This document shows, piece after piece, positions 1,083 through 52,995 of a stretch of 64,000 nt of DNA. Origin of the DNA: Nemertoderma westbladi (lineage: Eukaryota; Animalia; Xenacoelomorpha); assembly GCA_032718475.1 (NCBI GenBank), contig JAUCBJ010007554.1:1-64000 (forward strand), read 5' to 3'. Within the stretch, counting starts at the first letter, position 1. Each line of letters begins with the position of its first letter. A model generated the notes under the pieces. That model saw only the letters and a list, made by a program, of their open reading frames with translations. It was not told where the DNA came from and searched no databases. The position numbers were made by a program, and so were the translations under genes.

Positions 1083-1329
1083 TTAAAAAAGAAAGTATCA
1101 GATTCAAAAGGATTTACATTTCGGGAGGTAGACGTTTGAAGCACTAGCTCTGGTACTGTAAGAGTGTGTATCGCGTACTCTGTTGAATTTTTGTTTTAGG
1201 TAATTGGGACATTTACCATTATACACTTTATGCACATGGTTAAGGCGTAGCTGCTTAACTCTACTATCTAAGTTAAGTAGTCCAGATTCAGAAAAGTCAT
1301 CTGGAGTTGGGATTATCCCCCGTTGAATC

Positions 1330-2549
1330 TGTTCGCGCTTTTAAGACCTTTGGCAGTTTAACCCGCCAAATCTATATGTCTTCTAAGTTATAAATCTACT
1401 CTAGCCTATGACAAGTATTGAACACCTATAATAATTCTAACATTAGCCAAAGCCAGTCTGTGCGCGACCATTCACCCGCTGGATATACCCGGGAGACTGG
1501 ATTTGGATGCTTTAATTTGATTGCGGTGCAGGCCTACTGTACTATTCGATTGATCGTTAATATATAATCTCTGACAAATATTATTCACTTTCGGGAAATA
1601 TTAGCAGTTCCTTTAGGACGTGGCGCTCTATCTATTTAAACAGAGCTATGACTTACACTATACACAACAGTATGTCTTATAGATCACCAAAGTGCATTCT
1701 TTAGGAAATGCTTTGTTACTCGGTCAAGCACACACAGACTATTGCACACAACTGCACACTGAATTGCCGACATTCACTGATTTTAATCATATATAAAGAG
1801 AATAACAACCGACATTTGTAGGGCCTATTAAGTAGCATTGAACTCACTACAAACCACGATAATGTATGTCGCAAATTGTTATATGTAACCGGTCTCTCTA
1901 ACCTTAGTGTATCAAGAAGATTGGGTTTTCGGATCGTTATCAATATTCTTCCCAATAATAATATGTAAACGAACGATACAATTAACAACACAGTAAATAG
2001 CAGTAAATAATGCGGCGAAAAGCAGTTTACATCAGGGTGCTTAATCAGATGCCGAGGTGCAAAACCGTGATAACCGTTTGATGATCTTATAATTAAAGAC
2101 GCTCTAATGTCAGAAAACATTCCCCGGCCGGTGTTCTAGGCGTGGGGGAAACGTCAGTACTGAACCCTGTAATTCTGCTGTACAGCTTTTACACAAAGAG
2201 GGAATCTCTGATTGGTCGAATGGCAAAGAGCTCCACGTGGACACAGCTGATAGATGTCGTCATTTTGAGCTGAGCAGAACAAAGAACCAAGGCAAGGCTC
2301 CGGGCAAGCTACACATGTAAAGCTCAGCCGTTAGCTGTCGTCATAGTAACGACACTGTTTCAAGAGGATCTAGGGCGTTGCGTCATAGAATTGCTAATTA
2401 TGTCCTCTAAAGTACACATACAGAAGAAATAGCTTTTATGTCCCCTAAAAACACCGGTACAGCAATGACACGGCCTTTTATGCCTGCTAAACCAACTACA
2501 GAGTACTTTACGGGGAAAATGACCGGGCAATTCCGCAAAAGCTTTTACA
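1330..2549 (-). repeat. 3' LTR
   Basis: Direct repeat of 11737-12956, TGTT...TACA on + strand, adjacent to TSD and PPT-like tract. Confidence 0.95.
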
Positions 2550-5542
2550 CCGCTCCCAGAAAATGGGATTTTAGTCTATAAAATATAAAAATCACAATTT
2601 CTAAAATATAAAGATACTCTAAACAGTTAGTTTTTCTTGCGCGGACGGCGTTTACGCAGTTTCTTGAGACTAGCAAGAGTCCTTTTCTCTTTGGGGGGAG
2701 CCACTTTACTAGGAGGGCTATAACTCCTGGGTGAAGGGTGCAATACAATTGCATCAGAAGATTTAGGGTTACGGTCAGTGTCTCGTCCATTTCGATCTGC
2801 TTCTCCTCGAGCTGATTTTCCTCCGCTTGTGGTTGGACACGCTCGTCCAAAACTCTCGCAGAGAATAGGGTTGTCTAAGCTCGATATCTTCTTAGAGATT
2901 CAAGATTTCCCAATCGAACTGAGATAAAGCCAATTCGTTTACCGCTTGGACTTGCTGTTATAACTTACGTTTATCTGAACAAACGCAGGTTTCCTTTCTG
3001 ATCTTTGTAGAATAGCGTTTAACTTGTTTCGTACAACGCTCTCCTTCACCTTGATGAAGGGTTGTATCGCGTTAAACTGGGACGACCATACGGTTGAATG
3101 GTGATATTAGGTGTCCGCGTCCCAATACGGCTAGGTAAGATGGGCGGCTAGCTAGAGCTCGCTGCCGGAGTGTTACCGATTAATTGTTAGGGTAGCACTA
3201 GATCTTTGAACAGTGAATACAGCTCGTGAGGATCCGGGATACCATCAGAATCGAAAGTCTGAGGTCTAATCAAGGAACGAGGTGGTCTGACCGAGTATTC
3301 CGGAACTATAATCGTAGGTTTACTCAAGGATCGTCTGAGTCGAGCGAGCGTAGGTGATATGTCGAACAAGTTTCGGTTTCCGTGGATGTTTATGTCTTTC
3401 CGTTTATTAGTTGGGTCTAGGGCATTTATCGTAATAATACCAAAGACGCACGTCTGGTAGGGGAAACGCGGATGATATTTATTTGTTGTTACAATGCTTC
3501 TATCAAGAATTCCAAATATACGTTAGAGTTACCGCGTCCATTTGTCTCTCTAATGTCTTTTCTTTCGATTCGATTTCGAATAGAATTTTCGCATTCGTAT
3601 TTCAGTTTATCGTTCCGACTCCGCTGGGTAGGATATATGTTCGACATAGTCCGTATCGTGTGAATCGATAGAATGGCCAATGGTTAAGAAGTCCATATAC
3701 GTACTACTACGATGCGTGTAGCGAGCGGTGACACGTAAGTTGCTTCTAGGAAATCGTCGGTTCGATATAACGACCATCGTCCTCCGTAGTAGTTGGACTA
3801 GCGTTGCCGCGTATCAAGCTATAAACAAACACTTGTAAAGGTAGAGTATATCGCTCCCCGATACCAAGACCATCTTCTATCAACTCCGTTATATCTGCTA
3901 TATATGAGTTTATTAATATTATAATGAGCTTATAATTAGGCTAGCGAGCGTCGCTGCCTACCCCAATCAGCCCCCGGACAGTGTAAGATCCTCAGCGTAA
4001 ATGTATCGTCGTCGCTGTGTTTTCCGCCAACGTGTAGCTACACAACGACAACGACACTAGCACGAGTCACTCCACTGTCCGTCCCAAAGGCTTAGATACA
4101 CTTCAGGTTCTTACTGGAGAGTTAGGGTTACTTTCACAATTGCGACTCGCTACTGTAAACACACCTTAGTAGTAACATTCGCCTATAAACTCACAAATTC
4201 CACACACACAACTGTCACAAATTACACACACTCGGGCCATTTGTCCGTTAGTCAGTGCCTTCCAGAATGCCACATTATTATTATGTATCCTTGGATACTA
4301 GCAGTGCGCTATTTATTTCTTACTATGCAATGGGGCAAGCTTTCTATTGTTCTTTTTAACTTGCTTCTAATTCTAGCGTGGGTGTTACTATGGTGACATT
4401 ATGGAAAGCTAGCGGTAGAATTAGGGTAATTCCAATGCATACAGATCTGGGATGCTATTTAATAGTAATTCTTTAATGGTCCAATATCTCGTTTATATAT
4501 GATTTTATAAATTTTATCGGCTATTGACTCATACATGGGAGATTCTCACACTCTAACACACTTAATAAGATGAATCTCCGCTCCCGTGATCTATTAATTA
4601 ATGGGATTTTGGGAATGTTATAAATTGCACAGAATGACAATTTATTAAATTCATTAAAATATGAATTTAAATTTATTCCCTGAAATTTTATTATTTGATA
4701 GTACAATTGACACAATTTGATTCCAGAGCAGGTCTGGGGACATAGGATCCTTAATTCTATGAAAATTGTCTTTTAAGAGTATCGGTAAGTGCTACGATAT
4801 CTTAATCGACTAGAATTGTTAAAGGATCTGAATTTTACAGATTTTGATTTATAGATTTGTAAATATTAAATAATTAATATTTGAGATGGGCACCAATTTA
4901 TTCCAGAACTTGTCTGGGGACGTTAACCACTGATTCTAGAATTTGTCTTTCAAGTATATCGGTGGGTGCCGCGATATCTTAATCGACTAGAATTACAGAT
5001 GGTCAAAAGGTTTAACAGATTTATTTGCGTTTCACGCTACTGTTAGAGGGACATCACACTACTATATGTATTATTATATATGGTATGAGAGCAATATCGC
5101 ACGAAGCAATGTCAGTGTGAAGAGGCAAGTCGTTTCCAAGGTCTACCCAGAGCTTGGTTTAGCCGAGACACGAGGATCTGAACTTTGCATTCCTAATACT
5201 CTGCCTACCAATAATACTTGAATATAGTAGTGGCTTTATTGTACTTTAATAAGTACGGACATTTCATCTTACTGTAGTCACGTATTTATAATATGATACG
5301 GACAGTAAGGAAAGAGAAAAAATAATTATTTCTCGCCGTCGCACTAAATATATATTATAAGTAATTACGTACGTAATAAACACTAATATATTGCACTAAT
5401 CTACTAAATAATCACTAAAATAACATTATACTGAATAAAATTAAAGAAAACGATTATAATAAAATTACATAATAATACATACATAAATATAAAATAAAAA
5501 CAAATATAAAATGATATAGTCACACGCCCACTCCATATGTTA

Positions 5543-8500
5543 TTACGTTATGGAGTCCCTAGATATTTGTCGGATTAGGGAAGTGGTCGTAGGAAGAGTA
5601 TCTTGCCTTCCATAGTTTCCGGACAGTTTTCGGTCTCTTTCCAGTAAACATAAACGACCAACTGGGCGATTGAGTTGTTGTGTTACTTTCTCCGCTCCCT
5701 TGGCCTGTCTAATCTCCGCCGTGGTAAGATGAGGAGGCCATTCTTCTTCTTCTTTACTTAAGAAGTCGGATCCACCTAACCAGCCTGGAGTATCTATTAG
5801 TTCTTGAGGAGTTGCTCCTCTGGAAGCAATGTCGGCTGGATTAATCGTCCCAAGGCAATGTCTCCATTGATCTATAGTGGAGTTAATATCGTCATTATCT
5901 GAGGAGTATGGTGTTCCCTCAGTTAGTTCGTCCACCTCACTGCTCTCCACTTCCCATTCCTTTACTTGGTATACCTGTTGTTGAGGTAATCTCTCTTTGA
6001 GAGTTCTACGGGAAGGGCCAGTGAAGTACCAACCTACTCTAGTTCTTACCGCATAGGTTTGTAGTGGCTGTGGTTGAGCAGGCCGTTTCTCCAATGTCTC
6101 TAGCGCATCATGTGCGTTTTGGCCGATGAGTATTTGCACTCCAGGATAATCTGTGTGGAATCGAGGTATCTTAAACTGATGGATGCTCTCGTCCTCATCC
6201 CAGTTATAAGGTTCTACTTGGGTAGTAGCGAAGTTCTTTATAGCCACCATTTTTACTGACCTTATACTTTGTTCTCCTAATTTATCCTGGGGGGTGGACA
6301 ACGCACCTACATAGTAATCTGCCGTTATGGTAGATTTCCAAACCTGCATAATTCCTGACATATTCAACTTAGTTCGGAATTTGGGTTGTCCAGCAAAGAT
6401 GTCTTCGGCTAGTTCTTGATCGATGAATGTTCCTGTGCTGCCGGAGTCAAGGAGGGCGTTTACTATGTAACTTTTGTTAGGACCGTGAACTCTTACCTGC
6501 ACTACAGGAAATTCTCTGATTCCTACGTTGGAAGTTGGAGGTTTCCAAGATGGTTGTCTGTCAAAGGTAGTTGGGGGGAACTCATTGTCGGTGTCCTTTT
6601 CATACGTAAGTGCTCGATACACTACGGTATTTATTAGGTAACAGGATTCGTTGGCGTCGGAGAATTCGTCCGTATAGAATCCTTCCATCTCAGATTCTTG
6701 ATCAGTGTCATTTACATCACTGAATTGGACATGTAGTTCGGGCTCACTTACCTGACTCGGGTTGTTTCGTTCGAATTCACTGTGTAACAAGATGTGATGT
6801 TTCGCACCGCACTTTGCACACTTTACGTCGGAGTAACAGGTTCGCCGTTGGTGTCCTTGTCTGAGGCAATTATAGCATAACCGCTTATCCCACATGACTT
6901 CACGTCTGTCTACCAGGGATTTCTTTAGGAATTCAGCACACACACTCAAACGGTGGGGCCCGTCGCACAGCGCACATTTTGGTTTGATGTTACTCACTTT
7001 ACCTTGGGTAACGTTATGCAGTCTCGTTCTTTCTTCGGGCTTTCTTCCGTGAATTCTCTTAGGAGACGTAGGAAGAGTTGTTGTTACCTGTTCTCTCCTG
7101 TCACTGGTTCGAGACTTATATTTACTTACGTCTTTATAGGTCTTGTTGTCATAGTAAGATTTTGCTGTGTCTATCCCGCTGTCCTCTTCTTGAGAAGCTT
7201 GGCTTTCGCCGTCGTCAGTATAACACACTGGTGTTACCCTTCTCCTAGAAACGGGTTTCTCACTTACCTTATTTTCTGATGTTTTCTCTCTGGACTGCTT
7301 TATGAGTTGTAATTTTACTTCACTATCTAAGAAGGACATGAGATCAGCCATGGTAGGGCCTCGTCGTTGCTGCTCATTCATATACAACACTTTCTTGTCC
7401 CAGCGTGTACATACTCCACCCTTTGGTAAAGTAGAGACTACGGCTCCAATAACCATGGAACTCTGATATTCCTGAGACTTACCTAACCAATCCAATTGTC
7501 TACAGATCTCCTGAATCTCATCGGAAAACTCTATAATCCCGCTACTAAGGAACTTTCGGGGGGCTACTAATTTTGCATACAAATACTTAGCTATGTTATC
7601 CTTGTTACCATACCTGATGTTTAATGTATCCCAAACTTGTCTTAATCCATCTGGATGTCCAATAAACTTTAACGCCATTAACTTGGGAGGTCCTTCCAAG
7701 CACTTGATGAGGAATCTAAGTTTCTCTCCGTTAGATAGTACAGAGTTCTGTATGCTATCTTTGTAATATTCATTAAAAGGTAACCATTTCATCTCATCTC
7801 CATTGAATTTGACGATTTCTCCCACTTTGACCGCTTGGCGGGCTTCTGTTCTAGCCATCTGACGCGTAAAGCTTTCTTGGGCCATCGTATTATTTAATAT
7901 CGAATTATCGGTATATAAATTTCTCGGATTATTATCAGGTCTATAGGGAATATCATTAACAACAGGTTTATAATCACCCTTAATAGGGTTTGCTATAGGA
8001 GTTTCTACTTCACTAGCAGTATAGATGCATGTAGGCTCCACACCTTGCGCATGTAATACTTCAGACCTAACAGGTTGACACAATGTTACAGGGGGTATTG
8101 GTATACCCTTTTGTATATTGACTAATTTGTCGCGTTCTAGCGCGATACTTTGCTGCACTTCTTGCAATTCTACCCTACTTTCCCTTAATGTTCCCTTAAG
8201 TTGGTGGACAGTCTCCTGCATCTGTCCGAGCAGGAGATTCATCCCCCGCCGTCCCTCCTCTACCCACTCGACCGTCGAAGCGGGAGTCGCCAACATTGTA
8301 GTGGGCCGACGCGGGACGACGGGAGACAAATCTTTGGTTTCTCTCTCGGCGTCCAGGACAGGGATATTCTCATGGACTGTTCTACCGGGTACAGGCAGTG
8401 TAGTACTGTGTAAAGGGAATTTAGAGTTAAGCTCTGGAAGTACAGGGGTCTCTAGCACAGGAGTGGCTTTGGGAACGACAGGCCTAATTATTTCAGGCTC

Positions 8501-9562
8501 ATCAACTATCGTAGGGAGTCTTTTGACCTTAATAATTTGGTCTGTGGGTTCTGTACTACCTAAGTCTGTGCTAGCTAGTTGTCTTCTAACAGCTGGGGGC
8601 AAATCAGGCAATTTGTGACGGTGAGATGTTTTTCTACGCCTGCTTAGACGAGATCTATTTCCTCCGCCTTGAGGATCGGTGGTCTCGCCTTCCTCCGATG
8701 ATGTGTATCCCTGGCGTTTGGGAGTAGATCGACTCATCATCTGCATTTGACTAGCAGTTAATTGTTTATTTATGTTGTCTTGCGTCTCTTGCAGATTTTC
8801 CAACTCCAGTTGGGTAGTCTCATCAGACGCTCTCCGTTCTGCTTCTGCCACTGCCCTTGCCTCTGCTACTGCTGCTGCCTTTCGGTCCTCTATCCGTCTT
8901 TTCTTTACTTGTTCTTCCTGGACTCTAGCGAGGCGGAGTTTTTCATCAAATTTAGCTTGGTTTGCAGCTAACATTTCCGCATAGATTGCATCCAACACAA
9001 GCTTGGTTCCTTCACTATTAGGGCGAAGTCCAGACAGTCGTCTCCTCAACTCTTCGTCTCCTAGGAATCGCTGATAGTCTGACAGATAAATATCAATAGC
9101 GTCTCTCTTTCGCGGCTCCCCCGCTGTCACTTCGCTTTCTTCTTGAGAAGAAGTGGCGTCGGTTGATTCTTCAAAGGTTGGCCACTCATCATAAACCGTA
9201 TCCGCCATCTTCGCTCTGAGTTCGGGCGTCCGCTCAACAGTATCCGAACTACTGGAGCTATCGGGCCGCTGAGAACTAGGTTCTTGGCTAGGAGGTTGCT
9301 GCTGTTTGATAGCTGCTTCTTGATCCCGCTTGACTTGGGCCCGAGTGCCGATGATAGACCTACGCTGTTCTACTAGCCTAGGGTCTGACACTACTACTGT
9401 AGGGATGGCCTTTCTTACAATAGTAGGTGACTTAGACTTGGATCTAGGATGTTCTATACTTTGATCTTGGTCACAGATCCTTTTAATACGCTGTCTAAGT
9501 CTAATACTCATTCTAACACTTTCTAAGAGACTATCTGACAGTGATTGGGTTGCGTCTGACAT
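5543..9562 (-). CDS. BEL/Pao Gag-aspartic protease polyprotein (1339 aa) with fused RNase H-end and integrase-tail remnants
   Basis: DUF1759-like KFNGDEMKWLPF...LSNGEKLRFLIKCLEG; BEL/Pao triple Cys-His cluster CALCDGPH...CYNCLRQGH...CAKCGAKHHILLH; protease ALLDSGST plus ILIGQN and RTRVGW; then QWRHCLGTINPADIASRG...WLGGSDFL...WP and RPVGRLCLLE. No RT YxDD or integrase DDE core. Confidence 0.93.
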   Translation of the reverse strand: MSDATQSLSDSLLESVRMSIRLRQRIKRICDQDQSIEHPRSKSKSPTIVRKAIPTVVVSDPRLVEQRRSIIGTRAQVKRDQEAAIKQQQPPSQEPSSQRPDSSSSSDTVERTPELRAKMADTVYDEWPTFEESTDATSSQEESEVTAGEPRKRDAIDIYLSDYQRFLGDEELRRRLSGLRPNSEGTKLVLDAIYAEMLAANQAKFDEKLRLARVQEEQVKKRRIEDRKAAAVAEARAVAEAERRASDETTQLELENLQETQDNINKQLTASQMQMMSRSTPKRQGYTSSEEGETTDPQGGGNRSRLSRRRKTSHRHKLPDLPPAVRRQLASTDLGSTEPTDQIIKVKRLPTIVDEPEIIRPVVPKATPVLETPVLPELNSKFPLHSTTLPVPGRTVHENIPVLDAERETKDLSPVVPRRPTTMLATPASTVEWVEEGRRGMNLLLGQMQETVHQLKGTLRESRVELQEVQQSIALERDKLVNIQKGIPIPPVTLCQPVRSEVLHAQGVEPTCIYTASEVETPIANPIKGDYKPVVNDIPYRPDNNPRNLYTDNSILNNTMAQESFTRQMARTEARQAVKVGEIVKFNGDEMKWLPFNEYYKDSIQNSVLSNGEKLRFLIKCLEGPPKLMALKFIGHPDGLRQVWDTLNIRYGNKDNIAKYLYAKLVAPRKFLSSGIIEFSDEIQEICRQLDWLGKSQEYQSSMVIGAVVSTLPKGGVCTRWDKKVLYMNEQQRRGPTMADLMSFLDSEVKLQLIKQSREKTSENKVSEKPVSRRRVTPVCYTDDGESQASQEEDSGIDTAKSYYDNKTYKDVSKYKSRTSDRREQVTTTLPTSPKRIHGRKPEERTRLHNVTQGKVSNIKPKCALCDGPHRLSVCAEFLKKSLVDRREVMWDKRLCYNCLRQGHQRRTCYSDVKCAKCGAKHHILLHSEFERNNPSQVSEPELHVQFSDVNDTDQESEMEGFYTDEFSDANESCYLINTVVYRALTYEKDTDNEFPPTTFDRQPSWKPPTSNVGIREFPVVQVRVHGPNKSYIVNALLDSGSTGTFIDQELAEDIFAGQPKFRTKLNMSGIMQVWKSTITADYYVGALSTPQDKLGEQSIRSVKMVAIKNFATTQVEPYNWDEDESIHQFKIPRFHTDYPGVQILIGQNAHDALETLEKRPAQPQPLQTYAVRTRVGWYFTGPSRRTLKERLPQQQVYQVKEWEVESSEVDELTEGTPYSSDNDDINSTIDQWRHCLGTINPADIASRGATPQELIDTPGWLGGSDFLSKEEEEWPPHLTTAEIRQAKGAEKVTQQLNRPVGRLCLLERDRKLSGNYGRQDTLPTTTSLIRQISRDSIT

Positions 9563-10875
9563 GTTTGTTTACACAGTTGAATGCCTACGGCTATAAATAC
9601 AGTTAAAGTAAGTCTAGTAATTCAATATCACTGTTGGCCTAATAATTAATTACCGATACTGCTACTCAGTGTAACGTGGTATATATATAAAATATATTAG
9701 AATACCGGTATGCTTATAGTATATATAAGTACTATTTCAGACTAGATTTATCACAGAATACCGGTATGTAATTTCAGCACAAATATATATAAATATATAA
9801 TAGGCCTATCGTGAATACCGGTATACAGCTTACACTTATAGTAGATATAAGTATAATTCTGGACTAGAATTAATTACAGAATACCGGTATAATTTCAGCC
9901 TAAATTTATAGAATAAATATAATAAGCCTATTGTAAATACCGGTATGTCAATTATTTTAGAATAATTGAATTTCTGAATGTTAGGGGTTACTTGGTTACT
10001 TTACTCACTTTATTACCGTTATTTGAGCAGCAGTCCAACTGATATTAAGACCTAAGTGTTGTATAACAGGCCTACTATTTTATTAATAGATTTAGTGGAT
10101 TTATATGTACCCGTATGAGGGGTTTTGTTACAATATTGAAATAGATGTTATTATTTCTAGGAAGTAATCACTACACAAAAGCTGTGCGCTCTCAGTGAAG
10201 TGCTACTTATTGGACACTAAAACAGATAATTCTACTTCCTAAGTTACTTATCTACGAATTACTTACGATACGGGTGAGATTAATTCTCTAACTAAATACA
10301 ACAAAAATATTACGTACGAAATTTTAGGGTAATTTTACAGGGAAACTACAAACCAGTCTAACAAAGGGTTAGAACTTCTGGTTATTACAACTGACAGGAT
10401 ACTACGGTATTTGAGAATAATAAAGTAGTAGTAAATACACTGTGTTGTCCAGATAGGAAAATACCACCGTCTGACGACCTATAGCCGTATCGCTATAGGT
10501 ACTACGTTATGTATCACGGAGTGTCCCTACCTAGAAGTTAATTACCGCGGTCTACCAGAACCAACGTGCCTATTAACCACTTTACAACACAATATACTGC
10601 CCACACACTAATTACCTTCGGAAAGCACTGTACACTAAACCCTAAATTAGGTACAAGTACTTGTACAACAAATAATCAGTAGTTAAAAATACTTGAACAG
10701 CTAAAAGAACCACGGCATCTGCTGGAGTGACCGGTGCACAAAATCACCAGTCTTTACCTACGCCAAGCAGCCCGTGTAGTACCTGGGTTAATTTAACTAT
10801 AACGGTATGTGTAACAAGCACAATTACTGTAGGAATAAACTTGGGGACATGAATGTTGCGAATAATCGCGTAAAC

Positions 10876-11448
10876 TCTGAATAATAAATATTACGCTATC
10901 CGTACAGAATACTCAAACAAAATACAAACCAAACGCTGGCAGACTACCATCAAGCCTAAATAAACTACAGTATGTGCAGATTCCAAAATGGTTAGTTAGT
11001 ATGCGCAATAACACGGTAGTACGACTTATTCTTTAGGAGGGGGTTGACCTTACAACTCAAGATGCCCCAACTTACTAACTGGCACTTTATCGGACAGACT
11101 CTACACACGCAGCAATCTCTTCAGACCTAATAACAGCTAGACAACAATCCAGCCTACAAAATATCTGAATAATAACTATTACGGTACCTGAACAGACCAC
11201 ACAAACAAACACAGGCTAAAACGCTGGCAGACTACTATCAAGCCTAAATAAACTACAGTATATGCAGATTCCGAAATGGTTAGTTAGTATGCGTTCTAAC
11301 ACGGTAGTACGACTTATTCCTTAAGAGGGGGTTGACCTTACAACTCAAGATGCCCCTACTTACTAACTGGCACTTTATCGGACAGACTCTATACACACTG
11401 CAATCCGTTCAGACCTAACAACAGTCAGACAACAGTCCAGCCTACAAA
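10876..11448. repeat. Diverged ~288-bp tandem duplication in the retrotransposon 5' leader
   Basis: aaacgctggcagactac...cagcctacaaa block present twice (about 10876-11160 and 11164-11448). Confidence 0.85.
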
Positions 11449-11736
11449 TTGTCTGTACAGACTGAGCAGGCTTACACGCCTTCTGCTCAATACTAGCCTA
11501 CAAATAAATAAAACTGACAGAAATAAGTAAGCTCCAAAAGAAACAGGGGGTGTACAGTCCCTAATCTCTTAAACAGCCTACCAGTATACAATATCACAAT
11601 CGAAATAGTACTGATATACCTGTACTGTTGTAAGTACCGGTCCGGGTGATCAGGCAGTCAGGCCTACTGGTTACCGGTCGACCGGTACTTTAGTCTTGAT
11701 TGCTTACGCCGCAATCAAGATCCTACAAACGGTTAT

Positions 11737-12956
11737 TGTTCGCGCTTTTAAGACCTTTGGCAGTTTAACCCGCCAAATCTATATGTCTTCTAAGTTATAA
11801 ATCTACTCTAGCCTATGACAAGTATTGAACACCTATAATAATTCTAACATTAGCCAAAGCCAGTCTGTGCGCGACCATTCACCCGCTGGATATACCCGGG
11901 AGACTGGATTTGGATGCTTTAATTTGATTGCGGTGCAGGCCTACTGTACTATTCGATTGATCGTTAATATATAATCTCTGACAAATATTATTCACTTTCG
12001 GGAAATATTACCAGTTCCTTTAGGACGTGGCGCTCTATCTATTTAAACAGAGCTATGACTTACACTATACACAACAGTATGTCTTATAGATCACCAAAGT
12101 GCATTCTTTAGGAAATGCTTTGTTACTCGGTCAAGCACACACAGACTATTGCACACAACTGCACACTGAATTGCCGACATTCACTGATTTTAATCATATA
12201 TAAAGAGAATAACAACCGACATTTGTAGGGCCTATTAAGTAGCATTGAACTCACTACAAACCACGATAATGTATGTTGCAAATTGTTATATGTAACCGGT
12301 CTCTCTAACCTTAGTGTATCAAGAAGATTGGGTTTTCGGATCGTTATCAATATTCTTCCCAATAATAATATGTAAACGAACGATACAATTAACAACACAG
12401 TAAATAGCAGTAAATAATGCGGCGAAAAGCAGTTTACGTCAGGGTGCTTAATCAGATGCCGAGGTGCAAAACCGTGATAACCGTTTGATGATCTTATAAT
12501 TAAAGACGCTCTAATGTCAGAAAACATTCCCCGGCCGGTGTTCTAGGCGTGGGGGAAACGTCAGTACTAAACCCTGTAATTCTGCTGTACAGCTTTTACA
12601 CAAAGAGGGAATCTCTGATTGGTCGAATGGCAAAGAGCTCCACGTGGACACAGCTGATAGATGTCGTCATTTTGAGCTGAGCAGAACAAAGAACCAAGGC
12701 AAGGCTCCGGGCAAGCTACACATGTAAAGCTCAGCCGTTAGCTGTCGTCATAGTAACGACACTGTTTCAAGAGGATCTAGGGCGTTGCGTCATAGAATTG
12801 CTAATTATGTCCTCTAAAGTACACATACAGAAGAAATAGCTTTTATGGCCCCTAAAAACACCGGTACAGCAATGACACGGCCTTTTATGCCTGCTAAACC
12901 AACTACAGAGTACTTTACGGGGAAAATGACCGGGCAATTCCGCAAAAGCTTTTACA
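11737..12956 (-). repeat. 5' LTR
   Basis: Direct repeat of 1330-2549, upstream of the Gag ORF on the - strand; contains a CCAAT box (- strand, ~12620) and CACGTG. Confidence 0.95.
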
Positions 12957-15900
12957 GAATCCGTGTTTTACACCCCTTCCCGGATACAATAAAACTTGGA
13001 AATTAACTTGAATCCGTGTTTTACACCCCTTCCAGGATCCAATAAAACTTGGTAATTAACTTTAATCCGTGTTTTACACCCCTTCCCGGATCCAATAAAA
13101 CTTGGTAATTAACTTGAATCCGCGTTTTATACCCCTTCTCGGATCCAATAAAACTTGGAAATTAACTTGAATCCGTGTTTTACACCCCTTCCAGGATCCA
13201 ATAAAACTTGGTAATTAACTTTAATCCGTGTTTTACACCCCTTCCCGGATCCAATAAAACTTGGTAATTAACTTGAATCCGCGTTTTATACCCCTTCTCG
13301 GATCCAATAAAACTTGGAAATTAACTTGAATCCGTGTTTTACACCCCTTCCAGGATCCAATAAAACTTGGTAATTAACTTGAATCCGTGTTTTACACCCC
13401 TTCCCGGATCCAATAAAACTTGGTAATTAACTTGAATCCACGTTTTACACCCCTTCCCGGATACATAAACTTGGTAAATAAATTGAATCCGCGTTTTACA
13501 CCCCTTCCCGGATCCAATAGAACTTGGTAATTAACTTGAATCCGCGTTTTACACCCCTTCCCGGATACATAAACTTGGTAAATAAATTGAATCCGCGTTT
13601 TACACCCCTTCCCGGATCCAATAAAACTTGGTAATTAACTTGAATCCGCGTTTTACACCCCTTCCCGGATAAATAAACTTGGTAAATAAATTGAATCCGC
13701 GTTTTACAGCCCTTCCCGGATACATCAACTTGGTAATTAACTTGAATCCGCGTTTTATAGCCCTTCTCGGATCCAATAAAACTTGGAAATTAACTTGAAT
13801 CCGTGTTTTACACCCCTTCCAGGATCCAATAAAACTTGGTAATTAACTTTAATCCGTGTTTTACACCCCTTCCCGGATCCAATAAAACTTGGTAATTAAC
13901 TTGAATCCACGTTTTACACCCCTTCCCGGATACATAAACTTGGTAAATAAATTGAATCCGCGTTTTACACCCCTTCCCGGATCCAATAGAACTTGGTAAT
14001 TAACTTGAATCCGCGTTTTACACCCCTTCCCGGATACATAAACTTGGTAAATAAATTGAATCCGCGTTTTACACCCCTTCCCGGATCCAATAAAACTTGG
14101 TAATTAACTTGAATCCACGTTTTACACCCCTTCCCGGATCCAATAAAACTTTGTAATTAACTTGAATCCACGTTTTACACCCCTTCCCGGATCCAATAAA
14201 CTTGGTAATTAACTTGAATCCGCGTTTTATACCCCTTCTCGGATCCAATAAAACTTGGAAATTAACTTGAATCCGTGTTTTACACCCCTTCCAGGATCCA
14301 ATAAAACTTGGTAATTAACTTTAATCCGTGTTTTACACCCCTTCCCGGATCCAATAAAACTTGGTAATTAACTTGAATCCACGTTTTACACCCCTTCCCG
14401 CGGATACATAAACTTGGTAAATAAATTGAATCCGCGTTTTACACCCCTTCCCGGATCCAATAGAACTTGGTAATTAACTTGAATCCGCGTTTTACACCCC
14501 TTCCCGGATACATAAACTTGGTAAATAAATTGAATCCGCGTTTTACACCCCTTCCCGGATCCAATAAAACTTGGCAATTAACTTGAATCCACGTTTTACA
14601 CCCCTTCCCGGATCCAATAAAACTTTGTAATTAACTTGAATCCACGTTTTACACCCCTTCCCGGATCCAATAAACTTGGTAATTAACTTGAATCCGCGTT
14701 TTATACCCCTTCTCGGATCCAATAAAACTTGGAAATTAACTTGAATCCGTGTTTTACACCCCTTCCAGGATCCAATAAAACTTGGTAATTAACTTGAATC
14801 CACGTTTTACACCCCTTCTCGGATCCAATAAACTTGGTAATTAACTTGAATCCGCGTTTTATACCCCTTCTCGGATCCAATAAAACTTGGAGATTAACTT
14901 GAATCCGTGTTTTACACCCCTTCCCGGATCCAATAAACTTGGTAATTAACTTGAATCCACGTTTTACACCCCTTCCCGGATCCAATAAACTTGGTAATTA
15001 ACTTGAATCCGCGTTTTATACCCCTTCTCGGATCCAATAAAACTTGGAAATTAACTTGAATCCGTGTTTTACACCCCTTCCAGGATCCAATAAAACTTGG
15101 TAATTAACTTGAATCCACGTTTTACACCCCTTCTCGGATCCAATAAACTTGGTAATTAACTTGAATCCGCGTTTTATACCCCTTCTCGGATCCAATAAAA
15201 CTTGGTAATTAACTTTAATCCGTGTTTTACACCCCTTACCGGATTTAGTAACACATGGTAATTAACTTGAATCCGTGTTTTACACCCCTTCTCGGATCCA
15301 ATACAACTTGGTAATTAACTTGAATCCACGTTTTACACCCCTTCTCGGATCCAATAAAACTTGGTAATTAACTTGAATCCGTGTTTTACACCCCTTCCCG
15401 GATCCAATAAACTTGGTAATTAACTTGAATCCACGTTTTATACCCCTTCTGGATCCAATAAAACTTTGTAATTAGCTTGAATCCGCGTATTACACCCCTT
15501 CCCGGATCCAGTAACACATGGTAATTTAACTTGAATCCGCGTTTTATACCCCTTCTCGGATCCAATAAAACTTGGTAATTAACTTGAATCCGTGTTTTAC
15601 ACCCCTTCCCGGATCCAATAAACTTGGTAATTAACTTGAATCCGCGTTTTACACCCCTTCCCGGATCCAATAAAACTTGGTAATTAACTTGAATCCGTGT
15701 TTTACACTCCATTTCGGACCCAATAAAACTTGGTAATTAACGTAAATCCGTGTTTTACACTCCATTCCGGACCCAATAAAACTTGGTAATTAACGTAAAT
15801 CCGTGTTTTACACCCCTTCCCGGATCCAATAAAACTTGGTAATTAACTTGAATCCGTGTTTTACACCCCTTCCCGGATCCAATAAACTTGGTAATTAACT

Positions 15901-18192
15901 TGAATCCGCGTTTTACACCCCTTCCCGGACCCAATAAAACTTGGTAATTAACGTAAATCCGTGTTTTACACCCCTTCCCGGATCCAATAAAAAATGGTAA
16001 TTAACTTGAATCCGTGTTTTACACCCCTTCCCGGATCCAATAAAACTCGGTAATTAACTTGAATCCGTGTTTTACACCCCTTCCCGGATCCAATAAACTT
16101 TGTAATTAACTTGAATCCGCGTTTTACACCCCTTCCCGGATCCAATAAAACTTTGTAATTAACGTAAATCCGTGTTTTACACCCCTTCCCGGATCCAATA
16201 TACTTGGTAATTAACTTGAATCCGCGTTTTACACCCCTTCCCGGATCCAATAAAACTCGGTAATTAGCATGAATCCGCGTTTTGCACCCCTTCTCGGATC
16301 CAATAAAACTTGGTAATAAACCTGAATCCGCGTTTTACACCCCTTCCCGGATCCATCAAAACTTGGTAATTAACTTGAATCCGCGTTTTACACCCCTTAA
16401 CTTGAATCCGCGTTTTACACCCCTTCCCGGATCCAATAAAACTCGGTAATTAGCATGAATCCGCGTTTTACACCCCTTCTCGGATCCAATAAAACTTGGT
16501 AATAAACCTGAATCCGCGTTTTACACCCCTTCCCGGATCCATCAAAACTTGGTAATTAACTTGAATCCGCGTTTTACACCCCTTAACTTGAATCCGCGTT
16601 TTACACCCCTTCCCGGATCCAATAAACTTGGTAATTAACTTGAATCCGCGTTTTACACCCCTTCCCGGATCCAATGAAACTTGGTAATTAACTTGAATTC
16701 GCGTTTTACACCCTTTCCCGGATCCAATAAAACTTGGTAAATAAATTGAATCCGCGTTTTACACCCCTTCCCGGATCCAATACAACTTGGTAATAAACCT
16801 GAATCCGTATTTTACACCCAATCCCGGATTCAGTAGAATTATGAATCCGCGTTTTAATTAATAAAACGAAAATCCGTGTTTTACACTCCATTCCGGGTCC
16901 AATAAAACTTGGTAATTAACGTAAATCCGTGTTTTACACTCCATTCCGGATCCAACAAAACTTGATAATTAACGAAAATCCGTGTTTTACACTCCATTCC
17001 GGATCCAACAAAACTTGGTAATTCACGAAAATCCGTATTTTACACTCCGTTCCGGATCCAACAAAACATGGTAATTAACGTAAATCCGTGTTTTACACTC
17101 CATTCCGGATCAAATAAAACTTGGTAATTAACGTAAATCCGTGTTTTACACTCCATTCCGGATCCAACAAAACTTGATAATTAACGTAAATCCGTGTTTT
17201 ACACTCCATTCCGGATCCAATAAAACTTGGTAATTAACGAAAATCCGTGTTTTACACTCCGTTCCGGATCCAACAAAACTTGGTAATTAACGTAAATCCG
17301 TGTTTTACACTCCATTCCGGATCCAACAAAACTTGGTAATTAACGAAAATCCGTGTTTTACACTCCATTCCGGACCCAATAAAACTTGGTAATTAACGTA
17401 AATCCGTGTTTTACACTCCATTCCGGATCCAATAAAACTTGGTAATTAACGTAAATCAGTGTTTTACAATCCATTCCGGAACAAACAAAACTTGGTAATT
17501 AACGTAAATCCGTGTTTTACACTCCATTCCGGATCCAATAAAACTTGGTAATTAACGAAAATCCGTGTTTTACACTCCATTTCGGACCCAATAAAACTTG
17601 GTAATTAACGTAAATCCGTGTTTTACACTCCATTCCGGATCCAATAAAACTTGGTAATTAACGTAAATCCGTGTTTTACACTCCATTCCGGATCCAGCAA
17701 AACCTGGTAATTCAAGAAAATCCGTGTTTTACACTCCATTCCGGATCCAATAAAAATTGGTAATTAATGTAAATCCGTGTTTTACACTCCATTCCGGATC
17801 CAATAAAAATTGGTAATTAACGTAAATCCGTGTTTTACACTCCATTCCGGATCCAATAAAACTTGGTAATTAACGTAAATCCGTGTTTTACACCCCTTTC
17901 CGGATCCAATAAAACTTGGTAATTAACTAGAATCCGCGTTTTACACCCCTTCCCGGATTCAGTAGAAATATGAATCCGCATTTTACACTCCGTTCAGGAT
18001 TTAGTCTAAAACATGAATCCGCGCTTTACACTCCGTTCCGGATTTGAAAAAAAGGCCAATCCGCGTTTTACACACGGTTACGGATTCGGTAAATTTAGCA
18101 GAGCAGATTACACCCTAAAAATGTAAATTCAGTCGATTTCCGTAGGGACAATGTTAAATGATAGAATCCGGATCCGCGTTTTACTCTGACCC
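12957..18192. repeat. 53-bp satellite array (~95 copies, two subfamilies) ending in a transposon-like terminus
   Basis: Unit TTGAATCCGCGTTTTACACCCCTTCCCGGATCCAATAAAACTTGGTAATTAAC; variant CGTAAATCC...ACTCCATTCC dominates from ~16870; degenerates towards ...GGATCCGCGTTTTACTCTGACCC at 18192. Confidence 0.95.
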
Positions 18193-26480: not shown

Positions 26481-27224
26481 ATGGCAGACAGAGTTCTAAA
26501 GATGCACAGTCGTATAAACGCGCGTGGGCGTACGGCACGGGCGAGTGTGGGTCGGAAAGCGAACCGCAGCGTCGGCGAACCCGATATAATAAAGACTGAG
26601 TCGGTGGAACTGGACGCGATGACGGTAGAAGCTAGTGACGCCTTGCTCGAGCTGATAGCTGCGTCCACTACGGAGGTAGAAGTCCAGCCCCCGCCCCGGA
26701 AGAGAGGCCGTAGAGTTGTCGGGAGGCGATCGCAACCAACAGATGAACCCCCCGTCACCGATTACAAACAAACTTACGTGATGAAGTTGTTTGATCGGGG
26801 CGTCGATTTGGCGGGATTCCCCAGCGAGGGCCCGTTGTACCCGGTGTGTCGGGCGTGGATGCGGAACAAACCCTATCAGTCGGTGTCCGAGGAGGACGAT
26901 GGGACGTTGGACGAACCGGAGGAGGTTGACGGCTGCGTGTACCGGCTGCCGGTAGGGGACCCGTCCGTAGACGACAACCCGCTACCGGTAGCGGGGGTCA
27001 CATCCCGCCGTACCAATCCACCCGTCCCAGACCCGGATACCACCGGACAGGAACCAGTCCCGGACACCGCAGACCTTCTCTTCGGACACCGTCAGCGCTG
27101 GAAGAATGTCCGGAAGGAATGGAGGTTGGCGGCGGAAATAAAGAACTTGAGATTCAGAGAAGGATTCACTATACTCGATGATATATTCAATAAAGTAATA
27201 CTTGTTGACGTTTCAGGGAAATAA
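26481..27224 (+). CDS. LIN37: LIN37 (MuvB/DREAM subunit, Mip40 homolog), intronless CDS, 247 aa
   Basis: TYVMKLFDRGVDLAGF...PLYPVCRAWMRNKP and C-terminal LLFGHRQRWKNVRKEWR...NLRFREGFTIL match the two conserved LIN37 blocks. GC-rich CDS; pyrimidine tract plus AG at ~26446-26462 suggests a 5'-UTR intron; AATAAA at ~27220 and ~27307. Confidence 0.9.
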   Translation: MADRVLKMHSRINARGRTARASVGRKANRSVGEPDIIKTESVELDAMTVEASDALLELIAASTTEVEVQPPPRKRGRRVVGRRSQPTDEPPVTDYKQTYVMKLFDRGVDLAGFPSEGPLYPVCRAWMRNKPYQSVSEEDDGTLDEPEEVDGCVYRLPVGDPSVDDNPLPVAGVTSRRTNPPVPDPDTTGQEPVPDTADLLFGHRQRWKNVRKEWRLAAEIKNLRFREGFTILDDIFNKVILVDVSGK

Positions 27225-46560: not shown

Positions 46561-48624
46561 AGGTAGGTTCTGGTAGGGAGGAGTGGGGTGGTCCTAGATT
46601 GATTCACATTTTTAGTAATTTTAATTTAATAATTTTTTGCTCCATGGCACCATATATGTTTTGAAAGAAAAATTGTTGGTGTGATTCATGAATGTTCCCC
46701 TAGTCCTTCAAATTGTGAAATTTTTGCCTCTTGCGAATTGTAAAAATATTAATAATAGTTTTCAATAATATGACATTATAATAGTGTTATTGGATTGCGC
46801 AATAAAGGACAGGTGAGATCTTGGGGTAATACTACAAGAACGTAGAAGCAGCAGATATCCAAATCATACAGTCACATACGCTTGCAGATAGATCCACAGC
46901 TTCGACTGAACAAAGTGGAAAAGGGTTGCTAAGGAGGTTGGTTAACAAAGTCGGCAATGACGTCCAGGTGGGATCGAACCGGTAACCTCCGGCGCCAGCG
47001 GCTCAGGTAAAAAGTAGGTAGACCTGGAAGTACTGACTGATACCTTGTATGAAGCAATTTACGTCATCATGGCCTCTCGTAAGTACGACGTCCAAATACA
47101 GTAGGATTGAATATGGGATGGTCCTTGCTTGATTCACATTTTTCGAATTAATTTTTTCGAATATAAAAATGGTGGATAGCACTTGCTTTGTTATTGGGGC
47201 CTACTGTAATACTAAATTATCCTTCATTCTTCTCAGCTTCTTGATACGCATAATATAGTCCATGGTCCAGCCAGCATAGGGGATACTTTTTGGTAACCAC
47301 ACGGAACTTATATTTTTGGGAAGACCTAGCTTCTGGCCATTCATTTTGATATGATAACAAATCTGAATCGGTAGCTGACTTGGTGTTTTCACCGGTTGTC
47401 ATGGAAATGGTAAAACAAACATGCTGTAGTATTCTAATAACTCAATATAAATTCATCGTATCTTTTGAAAAAGATAGCTACTGGTCTAACAATTCTAAAT
47501 GTGACATAACATTCTGGAATATGGAATATAATTATTGTTACCATGGGAACGCTGCTAAATGAAAACTGACAAGTTTTAGAAAAATAGCTACCATTCTCGA
47601 ACAATACCATTATTTTAAAAACAAATTACCACATTTTATTGAATATTAGTTTTGGAAAATTTTGGTATACTGAGAGCTAAACCTGTTTTGTTATAACGGT
47701 GATATATGGTTCCAAAGATATACCATATTTGAAATATTTTTATTTTTCATCAATTTAATCTCATTCCACTCTGTTTCAAAATAATGACTTTAACAAATAT
47801 TTATGTCAATAAAAAACAATCAAGATGTGACTACAAATCACTTTAAAATGACAAGTGGCATCTAAATGGCATTTCAGACAACACTCCTTCACAGGTTACC
47901 ATGACAACCAATACAGATGCAATTGAAGATGACTCAGATATGACACAAACAAATGACTTGGCACCTACCACAAAAGAGAGGTTAACTAGTTCTTTTAGTA
48001 TATTCACTTCAATTTATATATTATCATAATTGTTCCTAGATGATTTCTGCAAAGATGATTCCTTCGATATGACTTTTTTGAATACTAAATCCTCTTTATT
48101 TAATCCTACTTGGGCCGGGGGCATATTCCCAAACCTTACACTATTATGAAAAAATCATGTAAGGAACGGAGATAGGGGTCGAACTAGTGTAAGCGTTTTA
48201 TACTCAGTTTGCAGGTACAGTAGAAAGTGTTCCAAACGCTGTAAGGAATGGAGAAATTGGGTGAAATCACGTAAGGGTTACACCAACAGTATTAGATGAG
48301 TAGACTTAACATTTGATATTATTCTAGGCAGTAGAACATTGGGATATGGTTTATACAGGGCTGCATGAGCTGCATCCACACACAAGGACCACACTGCGCA
48401 CAATATTGTGCTGTGGCAGCCTCCTTTCTGTTGGTACATGACTTGAATTTGCACAACTCATTGATGTTTGTTTTGTCGGCAGATACAGAGTGAGTACAAA
48501 ACAAAGACTCAACACCCAATTATAAAGACCTGCATAATCATCTAACATGTGTTAACTTTTGTTTATTGTTTTGGTTCCCCCAACACGCCTCAGTAAGTGC
48601 TCCTTTAGTAACCTGCTCCTTTAA

Positions 48625-50738: not shown

Positions 50739-50829
50739 TTAAATAGCAATGGGACTCATCGCTCTTATGGACCTAGCCCTAGCGCGACTTCACCTCTTTG
50801 TTTTGTACAGAACAGGCAGAAAAGTCTTG

Positions 50830-51110
50830 GGTCTTTGTTTTGTACTCAACCGGCAGATACATGTTGGTGGTTTACAATTGCAATACAGCAGAGAGAGAGA
50901 GAGAGAGGATAGATTATGGAGCTGGTAGAACATACAGTACATCCAATCAGGTATTACCATATCCTCCTCATCTAACAGCCATCCCAGACCTATGGGAGAA
51001 GATACATTGATGATGGGTACTAAGCTTATATACGATTGGTAGTTGGCTCGGGATAGGTGTCTCTCTTTAAACAATATTTACAAGGTGGCAGCAAGGTTGA
51101 CTCGATATCT
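50830..51110 (-). pseudogene. Academ-like transposase C-terminal remnant, copy 1
   Basis: ESTLLPPCK...HLSRANYQSYI...SPIGLGW...PDWM...LLYCNCK...CIC, matching the XPG-tail/Cys8 region of Academ proteins; Cys-rich tail homolog also at ~48415-48490 (-). Confidence 0.6.
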
Positions 51111-51569
51111 CCATGTTTTGAACAGAAAAGACGATACCGAAGCTCGTTCACGTCATTAACTTCTGACATTCATGTAAAGCAATAAGTATTATGCATAAGT
51201 CAGGTCCAAGATTAGCTGATATAGTTACAATGCGTTATTCTACTTAGAGATCCACACTCTTGGTAAACCTAGCATTTCAGGACATCGTTTTCATCCCTTG
51301 TAATGTATTTGAATTGGTTGAAGGTCATGATGGCATTGATTTGTGTCCATTTATTGCCGACACCCTCATTATCATCTCGAATATGAATGTCACATACTTG
51401 ATCTAGTCTTTGACGTTTGCTATTGGATACCCCCACCCCCCCCCCCCCCCCCCCCCCCACCATCCCTTTCAGTGAAACCTGCCTGCACTGATGTCTATAT
51501 TATTCTTAACCTTTCAACACATGTTATTATTCATCATTGGCGAACATTGGCAACTATCAGAATCGTATC

Positions 51570-52045
51570 TAGAGATTTAGAAAGTTTTATATGCCAATTA
51601 TATCGCAGGTGGTCAGATATTAATGACGTGAACGTGCTTCAGTATCGTCTTTTAATCTCAAAAAGTGGAGAAATCGAGTCAACCTTTGCTGTCACCTTGT
51701 AAGTATTGTTCATACACCTATATATCCAAAGCCAACTACCAAGCGTATATTTGGAAAAACGTTTAGTATCCATCATCAATGTACCTTCTCCCATTATACT
51801 GTAGGTATGTCTGTTAGATGAGGAGGATATGATACCTGATTGGATGCTTGTTCTTCCAGCTCCATCATCAATCCTCTCTCTCTGCTGTATTGAAATTGTA
51901 CTTCGTCATGTAAACCACTAACGTATCTGCCTACAAAATAAACTTCATTGCATTGAGTTGTACAAATTCAAGTAATGCACCAACTGGAAGGAGGCGGAAT
52001 TGGAATGAACTGATGCACTTGACACCTCAGATGATGATGATTTCT
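51570..52045 (+). pseudogene. Academ-like transposase C-terminal remnant, copy 2 (inverted relative to copy 1)
   Basis: LESFICQLY...DVNVLQYRLLISKSGEIES, then frameshifted ANYQAYIW...PSP...PDW...PAP...CKP..C..CTN; nucleotide similarity to the revcomp of 50850-51110. Confidence 0.6.
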
Positions 52046-52809: not shown

Positions 52810-52995
52810 CAACCACCTGTATCGACCACCTTACGTGAACGCAGATTAAGATTCAGTTGGCACTGCTGGAGAAGTAAACATGAGGTCATACTAGATCTAC
52901 TTTTCTGGCAACCAAGACAAGGAAAACGTATGCGGTGGACATATATACCTGGATATATGTATATGACATATATAGACCAACTTTTATTGGACTTG
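52810..52995 (+). mobile_element. RTE-like LINE 3' fragment
   Basis: PPVSTTLRERRLRFSWHCWRSKHEVILDLLFWQPRQGKR...TYIDQLLLD, typical of the region C-terminal to RT in RTE-clade elements. Confidence 0.65.

What the first reader, a model, noticed from the sequence alone, without database searches (positions are those of the whole stretch)
11726..12495. No tRNA PBS; the PBS position is complementary to the element's own LTR (possible Tf1-like self-priming)
Seen: the sense strand right after the 5' LTR reads ATAACCGTTTG-TAG-GATCTT with no TGG tRNA-CCA complement nearby. The LTR sense strand contains its complement AAGATC-AT-CAAACGGTTAT (+ strand 12477-12495 and the equivalent site in the 3' LTR): an exact 11-nt match (chance roughly 1220/4^11) plus 6 more pairs after a small bulge. 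Known: S. pombe Tf1 primes reverse transcription by folding the first 11 nt of its RNA onto the PBS. I am not aware of this in BEL/Pao elements. Inference: self-priming if transcription starts near 12487-12495.
Basis: partly seen in the sequence, partly recalled or inferred. Interest (0 to 1): 0.75.

Follow-up and report, generated by a model that had tools for sequence, protein, structure and literature searches.

The report
Self-priming signature in BEL/Pao retrotransposon
A young, enzyme-deleted jumping gene of the BEL/Pao group has no tRNA landing site; the 11 bases at that spot pair exactly with a stretch of its own terminal repeat, so it likely starts copying itself with a piece of its own RNA, a trick proven only in fission-yeast Tf1-type elements.

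Summary
Observation confirmed. A minus-strand BEL/Pao element (1220-bp LTRs, 5 mismatches, 5-bp target duplication) has no TGG within 150 nt of its 5' LTR. The first 11 leader bases are the exact complement of LTR nt 470-480 (11 of 20,000 shuffles). The element encodes Gag and protease but lacks RT and integrase, so it needs a helper. Folding predicts the duplex at about 1.0 only if the RNA starts at 12492-12487; the claimed 6 extra pairs are doubtful. In related copies the primer site varies, unlike a tRNA site, and one pair changes on both sides, though not seen on one molecule and not for the other changed positions. Among 20 distant BEL/Pao loci, all 9 without a TGG site pair 10-15 nt with their own LTR, but across a predicted splice junction; the window is the only contiguous case. 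Untested: transcription start (a TATA-like motif just upstream is adverse), host small RNAs, cleavage. Best reading: Tf1-like self-priming (0.68). Not found in print for BEL/Pao in my searches; this scan has noted it before on other DNA (at least 8 notes).

The parts
11737..12956 (-). 5' LTR, 1220 bp, TG...CA
12477..12487 (-). Candidate self-primer, LTR nt 470-480; exact complement of the primer site
   Evidence: duplex probability 1.0 for RNA starts 12492-12487
12490..12495 (-). Possible 6-bp extension of the duplex (doubtful)
   Evidence: probability at most 0.32
12492..12499 (-). TATA-like motif 5-12 nt upstream of the candidate primer; adverse if it is the real TATA box
   Evidence: motif scan; function untested
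11751..11780 (-). Hairpin near the U5 end (U5-IR-like, inferred)
   Evidence: z -3.8
11726..11736 (-). Primer-binding position, abutting the LTR with no spacer; no TGG
11694..11720 (-). 10-bp hairpin right after the primer site, kept in related copies through a change on both arms
   Evidence: z -5.3; loose ends
11632..11690 (-). Second leader hairpin
   Evidence: z -4.0
9563..11736 (-). 2.2-kb leader, with a tandem duplication of about 290 bp (10876-11455) and a 122-bp repeat (9713-9946)
5543..9562 (-). Single open ORF: Gag (DUF1759, about 7807-7421), zinc knuckles (about 7066-6779), aspartic protease (about 6550-6000), then in frame a short piece from the end of RNase H (5872-5729) and the polyprotein's last motif (5683-5639); RT, most of RNase H and integrase are absent
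2560..5542 (-). 3-kb region with no recognised protein; five ORF pieces gave no Pfam match
2550..2557 (-). Polypurine tract before the 3' LTR
1330..2549 (-). 3' LTR; holds the second copy of the 11-mer at 2080-2070
12957..12961 (-). Target-site duplication, 5' side
1325..1329 (-). Target-site duplication, 3' side

Best explanation
This is a recently inserted BEL/Pao element lacking RT and integrase whose primer site pairs exactly with nt 470-480 of its own LTR, and it likely primes reverse transcription with that piece of its own RNA, using a helper element's enzymes. Shown: the anatomy, the 11-bp complementarity, the absence of a tRNA-type site, variation of the site among related copies. Predicted: an RNA that starts at about 12492-12487 folds its 5' end back over a loop of about 740 nt onto the primer site, flanked by a U5 hairpin and a leader hairpin. 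Inferred from Tf1: a co-packaged RT/RNase H cuts just after 12477, the freed 3' end primes a minus strong-stop DNA of about 740 nt, and the absence of a spacer puts the cDNA end at the LTR's CA.
For: Exact match at offset 0, 11 of 20,000 shuffles. The window's primer site matches its own LTR for 11 nt and 20 other BEL/Pao LTRs for at most 6. Duplex probability 1.0 for starts 12492, 12489 and 12487, together with the leader hairpin. Contigs of related copies: summed depth falls from about 56,000 (11680-11699) to 1,800-4,400 (11710-11729) in run X1, and loose ends show primer sites that differ at 4 of 11 (X3, 3 contigs) and 6 of 11 positions (X5, another organism label, 1 contig) behind the same LTR end, whereas TGG-type sites are near-identical across unrelated families. 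LTR position 12482 is changed G to T (sense) in 6240 of 7855 (X1), 9569 of 11341 (X3) and 198.6 of 198.6 (X4) depth units; the X3 primer-site variant carries the matching C to A at its partner 11731. All 9 of 9 non-TGG BEL/Pao loci (8 families; 7 loci with the LTR end fixed independently) pair 10-15 nt with their own spliced LTR, against at most 9 in 198 cross-family pairings; 11 of 11 TGG-type loci reach only 4-6.
Against: No start-site, cleavage or cDNA data. A TATA-like motif at 12499-12492 would, if functional, start the RNA near 12468, downstream of the site (spacing from general knowledge). The duplex probability falls to 0.3 for a start at 12505 and to about 0 from 12515 upward, where the site is held in an LTR-internal stem. 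Covariation is thin: one pair, on different contigs; for the other three changed positions of the X3 variant no partner change appears among the 40 of 215 rows shown; and one search lists no simple substitution at 11731, although the majority LTR variant predicts one (that table under-reports clustered changes: it shows 5 rows while single contigs hold up to 15 differences). The supporting relatives are only 20-30% alike, use a splice junction, and do not group with the window's element. None of 20 tested loci had a contiguous match above 8.
Confidence: 0.68

Rival explanations
1. The duplex is real but structural (a U5-leader, packaging or translation switch), and priming uses something else, for instance a host RNA that displaces it.
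For: The region is rich in hairpins. A second, bulged complement of the primer site lies at about 12226-12205 (-18.2 versus -19.6 kcal/mol), so the site has alternative partners. Conserved non-priming hairpins at the PBS position are described for fungal GalEa (PMC5445492, passages).
Against: The pairing ends exactly at the LTR boundary, where a primer's 3' end must sit; the site's sequence varies among related copies, so no single outside primer fits; in 9 of 9 non-TGG relatives the pairing starts 0-4 nt from the LTR end.
Confidence: 0.13
2. A host small RNA primes: an internal tRNA fragment or half. The last 6-7 bases of the candidate primer resemble the D-loop of tRNA-Val (recalled, not from a call), so a 5' fragment of about 22 nt could pair 7-9 bases.
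For: Internal-tRNA and half-tRNA primers are documented in copia lineages (PMC6317226 and PMC5445492, passages). ICTV describes Belpaoviridae as tRNA-primed (PMC8742986, whole text).
Against: Related copies change 4 and 6 of the 11 positions, including the partner of what would be an invariant tRNA G (tRNA numbering recalled). It leaves the 11-nt self match as a 1-in-1,800 coincidence.
Confidence: 0.08
3. Self-priming, but by an internal segment of a longer R region (start well upstream, or a spliced 5' end), as in the splice-junction relatives; the contiguous match would then be an intron-lost state.
For: In L001, L016 and L020 a TATA-like motif lies 140-171 nt upstream of the donor, so the junction primer would be over 100 nt inside the RNA (3 of 13 loci examined showed such a motif). 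The window's LTR has a CCAAT at 12622 and strong donors at 12254 and 12063.
Against: For unspliced RNAs starting at 12515 or upstream the duplex is predicted absent. No strict or relaxed splice junction in this LTR beats the contiguous 11 (best 10). The tree does not place the element among the spliced types. This variant is counted inside the best explanation's confidence only in so far as the same 11 bases prime.
Confidence: 0.06
4. Chance complementarity in a degenerate copy.
Against: The copy is young (LTRs 99.6% identical, ORF open over 1341 codons), still needs some primer and has no tRNA-type site; the same own-LTR rule holds in 9 of 9 non-TGG relatives.
Confidence: 0.05

Closest known systems
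Tf1/Tf2 (Schizosaccharomyces pombe), Tj1 (S. japonicus) and the Tf1/sushi group, Ty3/gypsy
   Same: No tRNA site; 11 bases of the LTR complementary to the primer site. [quoted passage not shown]
   Different: This element is BEL/Pao by its proteins; it has no RT/RNase H of its own; the predicted loop is about 740 nt; start site and cleavage are untested.
Plant Tcn1 (gypsy) and TAR (copia: Houba, Osr-1) lineages
   Same: Self-priming predicted from sequence complementarity alone (PMC6317226, passages).
   Different: Other superfamilies and hosts; that survey covers plants, not BEL/Pao.
Belpaoviridae / Semotivirus as defined by ICTV
   Same: LTRs within 0.2-1.2 kb range at its top end, Gag with DUF1759 and zinc knuckles, protease, Pao-type RNase H remnant, polypurine tract (PMC8742986, whole text).
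   Different: ICTV gives an 18-nt PBS complementary to tRNA-Arg or tRNA-Gly and priming by host tRNA; this element has no such site, and lacks RT and integrase.
Splice-junction-primer BEL/Pao families (unpublished scan notes; re-tested here on metagenome loci)
   Same: No TGG site; 10-15-nt core pairing with the element's own LTR RNA, starting 0-4 nt from the LTR end, followed by a bulge and further pairs.
   Different: There the complement forms only after removal of a GTAAG...YAG intron of about 67-170 nt in the LTR; here it is contiguous in the DNA. Proteins are only 20-30% alike.
Cer7 of Caenorhabditis elegans (recalled only)
   Same: As I recall, a BEL-type element proposed to encode its own tRNA-like primer.
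   Different: That primer would come from a separate tRNA-like sequence near the 3' end, not from the LTR. Not verified: one search found 0 papers.

Membership tests
BEL/Pao (Belpaoviridae) | Direct LTRs, TG...CA, target duplication, polypurine tract | tested here: met
BEL/Pao (Belpaoviridae) | Gag, protease and Pao-type Pol homology in the order PR-RT-RH-IN | tested here: met
   DUF1759 E 2.5e-12; all 11 homologs carry DUF1759 or Pao-type Pol domains; surviving pieces are collinear with a full-length relative
BEL/Pao (Belpaoviridae) | Encodes RT, RNase H and integrase (autonomous member) | tested here: not met
   No match to profile positions 730-1265 or beyond 1336 except the last motif: a deleted, non-autonomous derivative
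BEL/Pao (Belpaoviridae) | 18-nt PBS complementary to a tRNA 3' end | tested here: not met
   first TGG 153 nt after the LTR
BEL/Pao (Belpaoviridae) | Placement in a named clade (BEL, Pao, Tas, Suzu, Sinbad, Dan, Flow, Sailor) | tested here: inconclusive
   long branch in a FastTree tree of 79 rows x 572 columns with no named references
Tf1/sushi group (membership) | Ty3/gypsy chromovirus proteins | tested here: not met
   proteins are BEL/Pao; not a member
Tf1-like self-priming (mechanism) | Primer site perfectly complementary to about 11 nt of own LTR | tested here: met
Tf1-like self-priming (mechanism) | The complementary bases are the first bases of the RNA | not testable with these tools
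   only contigs were served; folding favours a start at 12492-12487; TATA-like motif at 12499-12492 is adverse
Tf1-like self-priming (mechanism) | Flanking RNA structure (U5-IR-like stems) | tested here: inconclusive
   hairpins predicted on both sides, z -3.8 and -5.3, one with a two-sided change in related copies; role unknown
Tf1-like self-priming (mechanism) | Compensatory change between primer and primer site | tested here: inconclusive
   1 of 11 pairs changed on both sides, unphased; other changed positions unmatched in the rows shown
Tf1-like self-priming (mechanism) | RNase H cleavage after the paired bases; primer on strong-stop DNA | not testable with these tools
   needs bench work
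Splice-junction primer type | Complement created by removing an intron in the LTR | tested here: not met
   strict search 0, relaxed search best 10 versus contiguous 11

The most novel reading that the evidence does not exclude
A large part of the BEL/Pao superfamily, defined by ICTV as tRNA-primed, primes reverse transcription with its own RNA, in two forms: a contiguous Tf1-like 5' primer (this element) and a primer assembled by splicing an intron out of the LTR (8 other families here). This RT-less element would further show that the primer can be cut out in trans by a helper's RNase H, with primer and primer site free to drift together between subfamilies.
Probability: 0.55. Interest if true: 0.8.

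Novelty: new variant of a known kind. Interest (0 to 1): 0.62.

Why it matters
Self-priming has been shown at the bench only for the fission-yeast Tf1 group and predicted for some gypsy and copia lineages. Finding it in BEL/Pao would extend it to the third LTR superfamily, revise the ICTV description of Belpaoviridae, explain why many of these elements are annotated with no PBS, and free them from host tRNA supply and from tRNA-fragment interference. The element gives a short, testable target: a predicted start at 12492-12487, a cut after 12477 and a strong-stop DNA of about 740 nt.

Tried and rejected
No whole genome is held, so sibling copies could not be phased. No RNA holder listed; all four runs laid were contigs, so start site, strand and splicing were not readable. 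ARAGORN found 0 tRNAs in the window and 0 in the 95 loci, so no host tRNA could be compared; Rfam gave 3 chance-level hits in 1200-13000. Viral contigs gave no BEL/Pao relative in 2 scans; a 17-mer of the LTR end hit one unrelated contig, a chance match. No close protein relative exists in the databases searched (best about 25-40% over parts). A blind scan for self-complementary sites upstream of gag gave many contiguous 10-12-nt hits of chance type; the best candidate, L003, lies inside coding sequence and was rejected. L083, the window's neighbour in the tree, could not be phased. L094's LTR end was wrong and was reset by eye at its TGG site. 75 of 95 loci were left out because an LTR end or a full LTR could not be fixed. 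Scan look-ups by the window's DNA and protein found no look-alike. Five ORF pieces in the 3' region gave no Pfam match.

Full report
1. The observation. The element lies on the minus strand. Its LTRs are 12956-11737 and 2549-1330, 1220 bp each with 5 mismatches; they start TG, end CA, and are flanked by the same 5 bases. The 11 bases right after the 5' LTR (11736-11726) are the exact reverse complement of LTR nt 470-480 (12487-12477), with no spacer. The first TGG is 153 nt downstream. The 11-mer appears in 11 of 20,000 dinucleotide shuffles of the LTR, 20 of 20,000 if offsets 0-3 are allowed; along the 9157 internal positions only 3 separate places reach 11 bases of LTR complement. The 6 extra pairs are possible but overlap a 10-bp hairpin that begins at 11720 (z -5.3), and their predicted probability is at most 0.32.

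2. What the element is. One ORF of 1341 codons holds DUF1759 Gag, zinc knuckles and an aspartic protease (weak Pfam hits; collinear matches to BEL/Pao polyproteins). It then jumps in frame to about 50 residues from the end of RNase H and to the polyprotein's last motif. RT and integrase are absent from the whole element. It is a young non-autonomous BEL/Pao element that needs a helper. No close relative exists in the protein databases. The host is an animal (LIN37 neighbour).

3. Folding. For RNAs ending at 11690 or 11630, the duplex has probability 1.0 when the RNA starts at 12492, 12489 or 12487, 0.7 at 12498, about 0.65 at 12484, 0.3 at 12505 and about 0 from 12515 to 12700 (same trend). 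With more upstream sequence the site is held in an LTR-internal stem. Folds of 800-1000 nt are rough, but they mark a narrow window of starts that matches the Tf1 geometry. Against it, a TATA-like motif at 12499-12492 would place a start about 25-30 nt further on, past the site (spacing from general knowledge). No AATAAA is present; ATTAAA occurs at 12194 and 11923.

4. Related copies. Seven runs were listed, none on record as RNA; four were laid, all contigs. Summed depth is not copy number. In X1 it is about 56,000 at 11680-11699 and over 100,000 at the LTR end, but 1,800-4,400 at 11710-11729: most related copies differ over the primer site and the start of the hairpin. Loose ends behind the same LTR end show primer sites changed at 4 of 11 positions (X3, 3 contigs) and 6 of 11 (X5, a second organism label, 1 contig). 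The hairpin after the site is kept, with a G-C pair replaced by T-A in the X3 variant. In the LTR, 12482 reads T instead of G (sense) in 6240 of 7855, 9569 of 11341 and 198.6 of 198.6 depth units in X1, X3 and X4; its partner 11731 reads A instead of C in the X3 variant. That is one compensated pair, on different contigs. Against: no partner change for the variant's other three positions is among the 40 of 215 rows shown; the one long X4 contig over the site has only that one change within the 11-mer apart from one unplaced inserted base; and one search lists no plain substitution at 11731, though that table shows only 5 rows while single contigs hold up to 15 differences. So the data argue against a fixed host primer more firmly than they prove covariation.

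5. Distant BEL/Pao elements. Scans with an alignment of 10 BEL/Pao polyproteins gave 78 metagenome and 17 genome-collection loci. Prompted by earlier scan notes, I tested both contiguous and spliced matches. Of 95 loci, 20 had a usable LTR and primer site; 75 were left out. Eleven carry a TGG-type site, near-identical across unrelated families (recalled as the complement of the tRNA-Tyr 3' end), and match their own LTR for only 4-6 nt. Nine (8 families) have no TGG, all-different sites, and each pairs 10-15 nt with a junction made by a GTAAG...YAG intron in its own LTR. For 7 of the 9 the LTR end was fixed by the two repeat copies; for L009 and L026 it came from the blind scan and is not independent. 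Across 198 cross-family pairings the longest match was 9. The introns have textbook signals, and the core duplex is followed by a bulge and more pairs, as in the window. In 3 of 13 loci a TATA-like motif lies 140-171 nt before the donor, which would put the primer inside the RNA rather than at its 5' end. The window's element is the only contiguous case; no splice in its LTR does better than 10. A FastTree tree (79 rows, 572 columns) puts it on a long branch next to another long branch, outside the spliced group; placement is unresolved. These loci show that own-LTR pairing is the rule among non-tRNA BEL/Pao elements sampled, which raises the odds for the window; they do not test it directly.

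6. Mechanism. Most likely (0.68): transcription starts at about 12492-12487, the 5' end folds onto the primer site across about 740 nt, a helper's RNase H cuts after 12477, and the freed 3' end primes minus-strand DNA. Steps shown: complementarity, lack of tRNA site, variability of the site. Predicted: the fold. Inferred from Tf1: start, cut, priming. Rivals: structural stem with another primer (0.13), host RNA fragment (0.08), internal or spliced self-primer (0.06), chance (0.05).

7. What is known. Tf1: first 11 bases pair with the PBS and RNase H cuts between 11 and 12 (PMC7175516, passages); Tj1 and Tf2 (PMC4600332, PMC5341516, passages). Predicted self-priming in plant Tcn1 and TAR (PMC6317226, passages). 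ICTV: Belpaoviridae have an 18-nt PBS for tRNA-Arg or tRNA-Gly (PMC8742986, whole text). Two BEL/Pao papers hold no occurrence of primer binding, PBS, tRNA or priming (PMC554778, PMC3118150, term search of the main text). Searches listed no paper whose title or abstract start reports self-priming in BEL/Pao; of those listed I read passages of PMC3601003 (12 of 25 places), PMC8220671, PMC3286476 (12 of 21), PMC2864245, PMC5443660 and PMC5445492, and none made that claim; one search listed 25 of 80 papers. Subscription journals, Repbase reports and supplements were not searched and may bear on novelty; a self-encoded primer in C. elegans Cer7 is recalled only (one search found nothing). This scan has noted BEL/Pao self-priming on other DNA in at least 8 unchecked notes.

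8. Verdict. Real feature; works like Tf1 by prediction; not a Tf1/sushi member; a non-autonomous BEL/Pao derivative that fails the family's tRNA-PBS criterion. New variant of a known kind. Interest 0.62.

Noticed in passing
L001, L009, L011, L016, L019, L022, L026, L034, L037 (LTRs); by blind scan also L015, L020, L027, L028, L030, L032, L033, L036, L049, L058: BEL/Pao elements whose primer site pairs 10-15 nt with an exon-exon junction formed by a GTAAG...YAG intron inside their own LTR. Splicing itself was not seen in RNA.
   Followed up: partly
window 12957-17958: A 53-bp satellite (about 94 copies) abuts the 5' LTR; the target duplication is the end of its unit, and the unit holds a purine run followed by TGTAAAA, much like this element's own polypurine tract-LTR junction. 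It may derive from such a junction.
   Followed up: no
window 12254-12184 (-): A possible 71-nt intron in the LTR (GTGAGT donor, CAG acceptor) contains a second, bulged complement of the primer site (about 12226-12205, -18.2 kcal/mol); a second strong donor lies at 12063.
   Followed up: partly
window 5543-6000 (-): Two in-frame deletions fuse protease to the end of RNase H and that to the polyprotein's last motif, leaving a 1340-codon ORF open: a streamlined Gag-protease element rather than a decayed one.
   Followed up: partly
window 11737-11746 (-), related copies: Contigs in X1 and X3 show another LTR 3' end (a short terminal hairpin) joined to nearly the same primer site and leader (loose ends at 11741): possible exchange of LTR ends between subfamilies.
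   Followed up: no
window 26481-27224 (+): Single-exon LIN37 ORF (Pfam E 4e-28); the nearest named protein is a snail's at 33% identity, so the host is an animal without close relatives in the database.
   Followed up: partly
window 46932-52818: Element with about 600-bp terminal inverted repeats (99%) and a piggyBac-type transposase piece (DDE_Tnp_1_7) at 49222-49845.
   Followed up: no
L080-L094: Complete animal-type BEL/Pao elements lie in contigs titled as bacterial MAGs: likely host DNA inside those assemblies.
   Followed up: no
window 12957-62906: Much of the window is tandem arrays with units of 25-72 bp.
   Followed up: no
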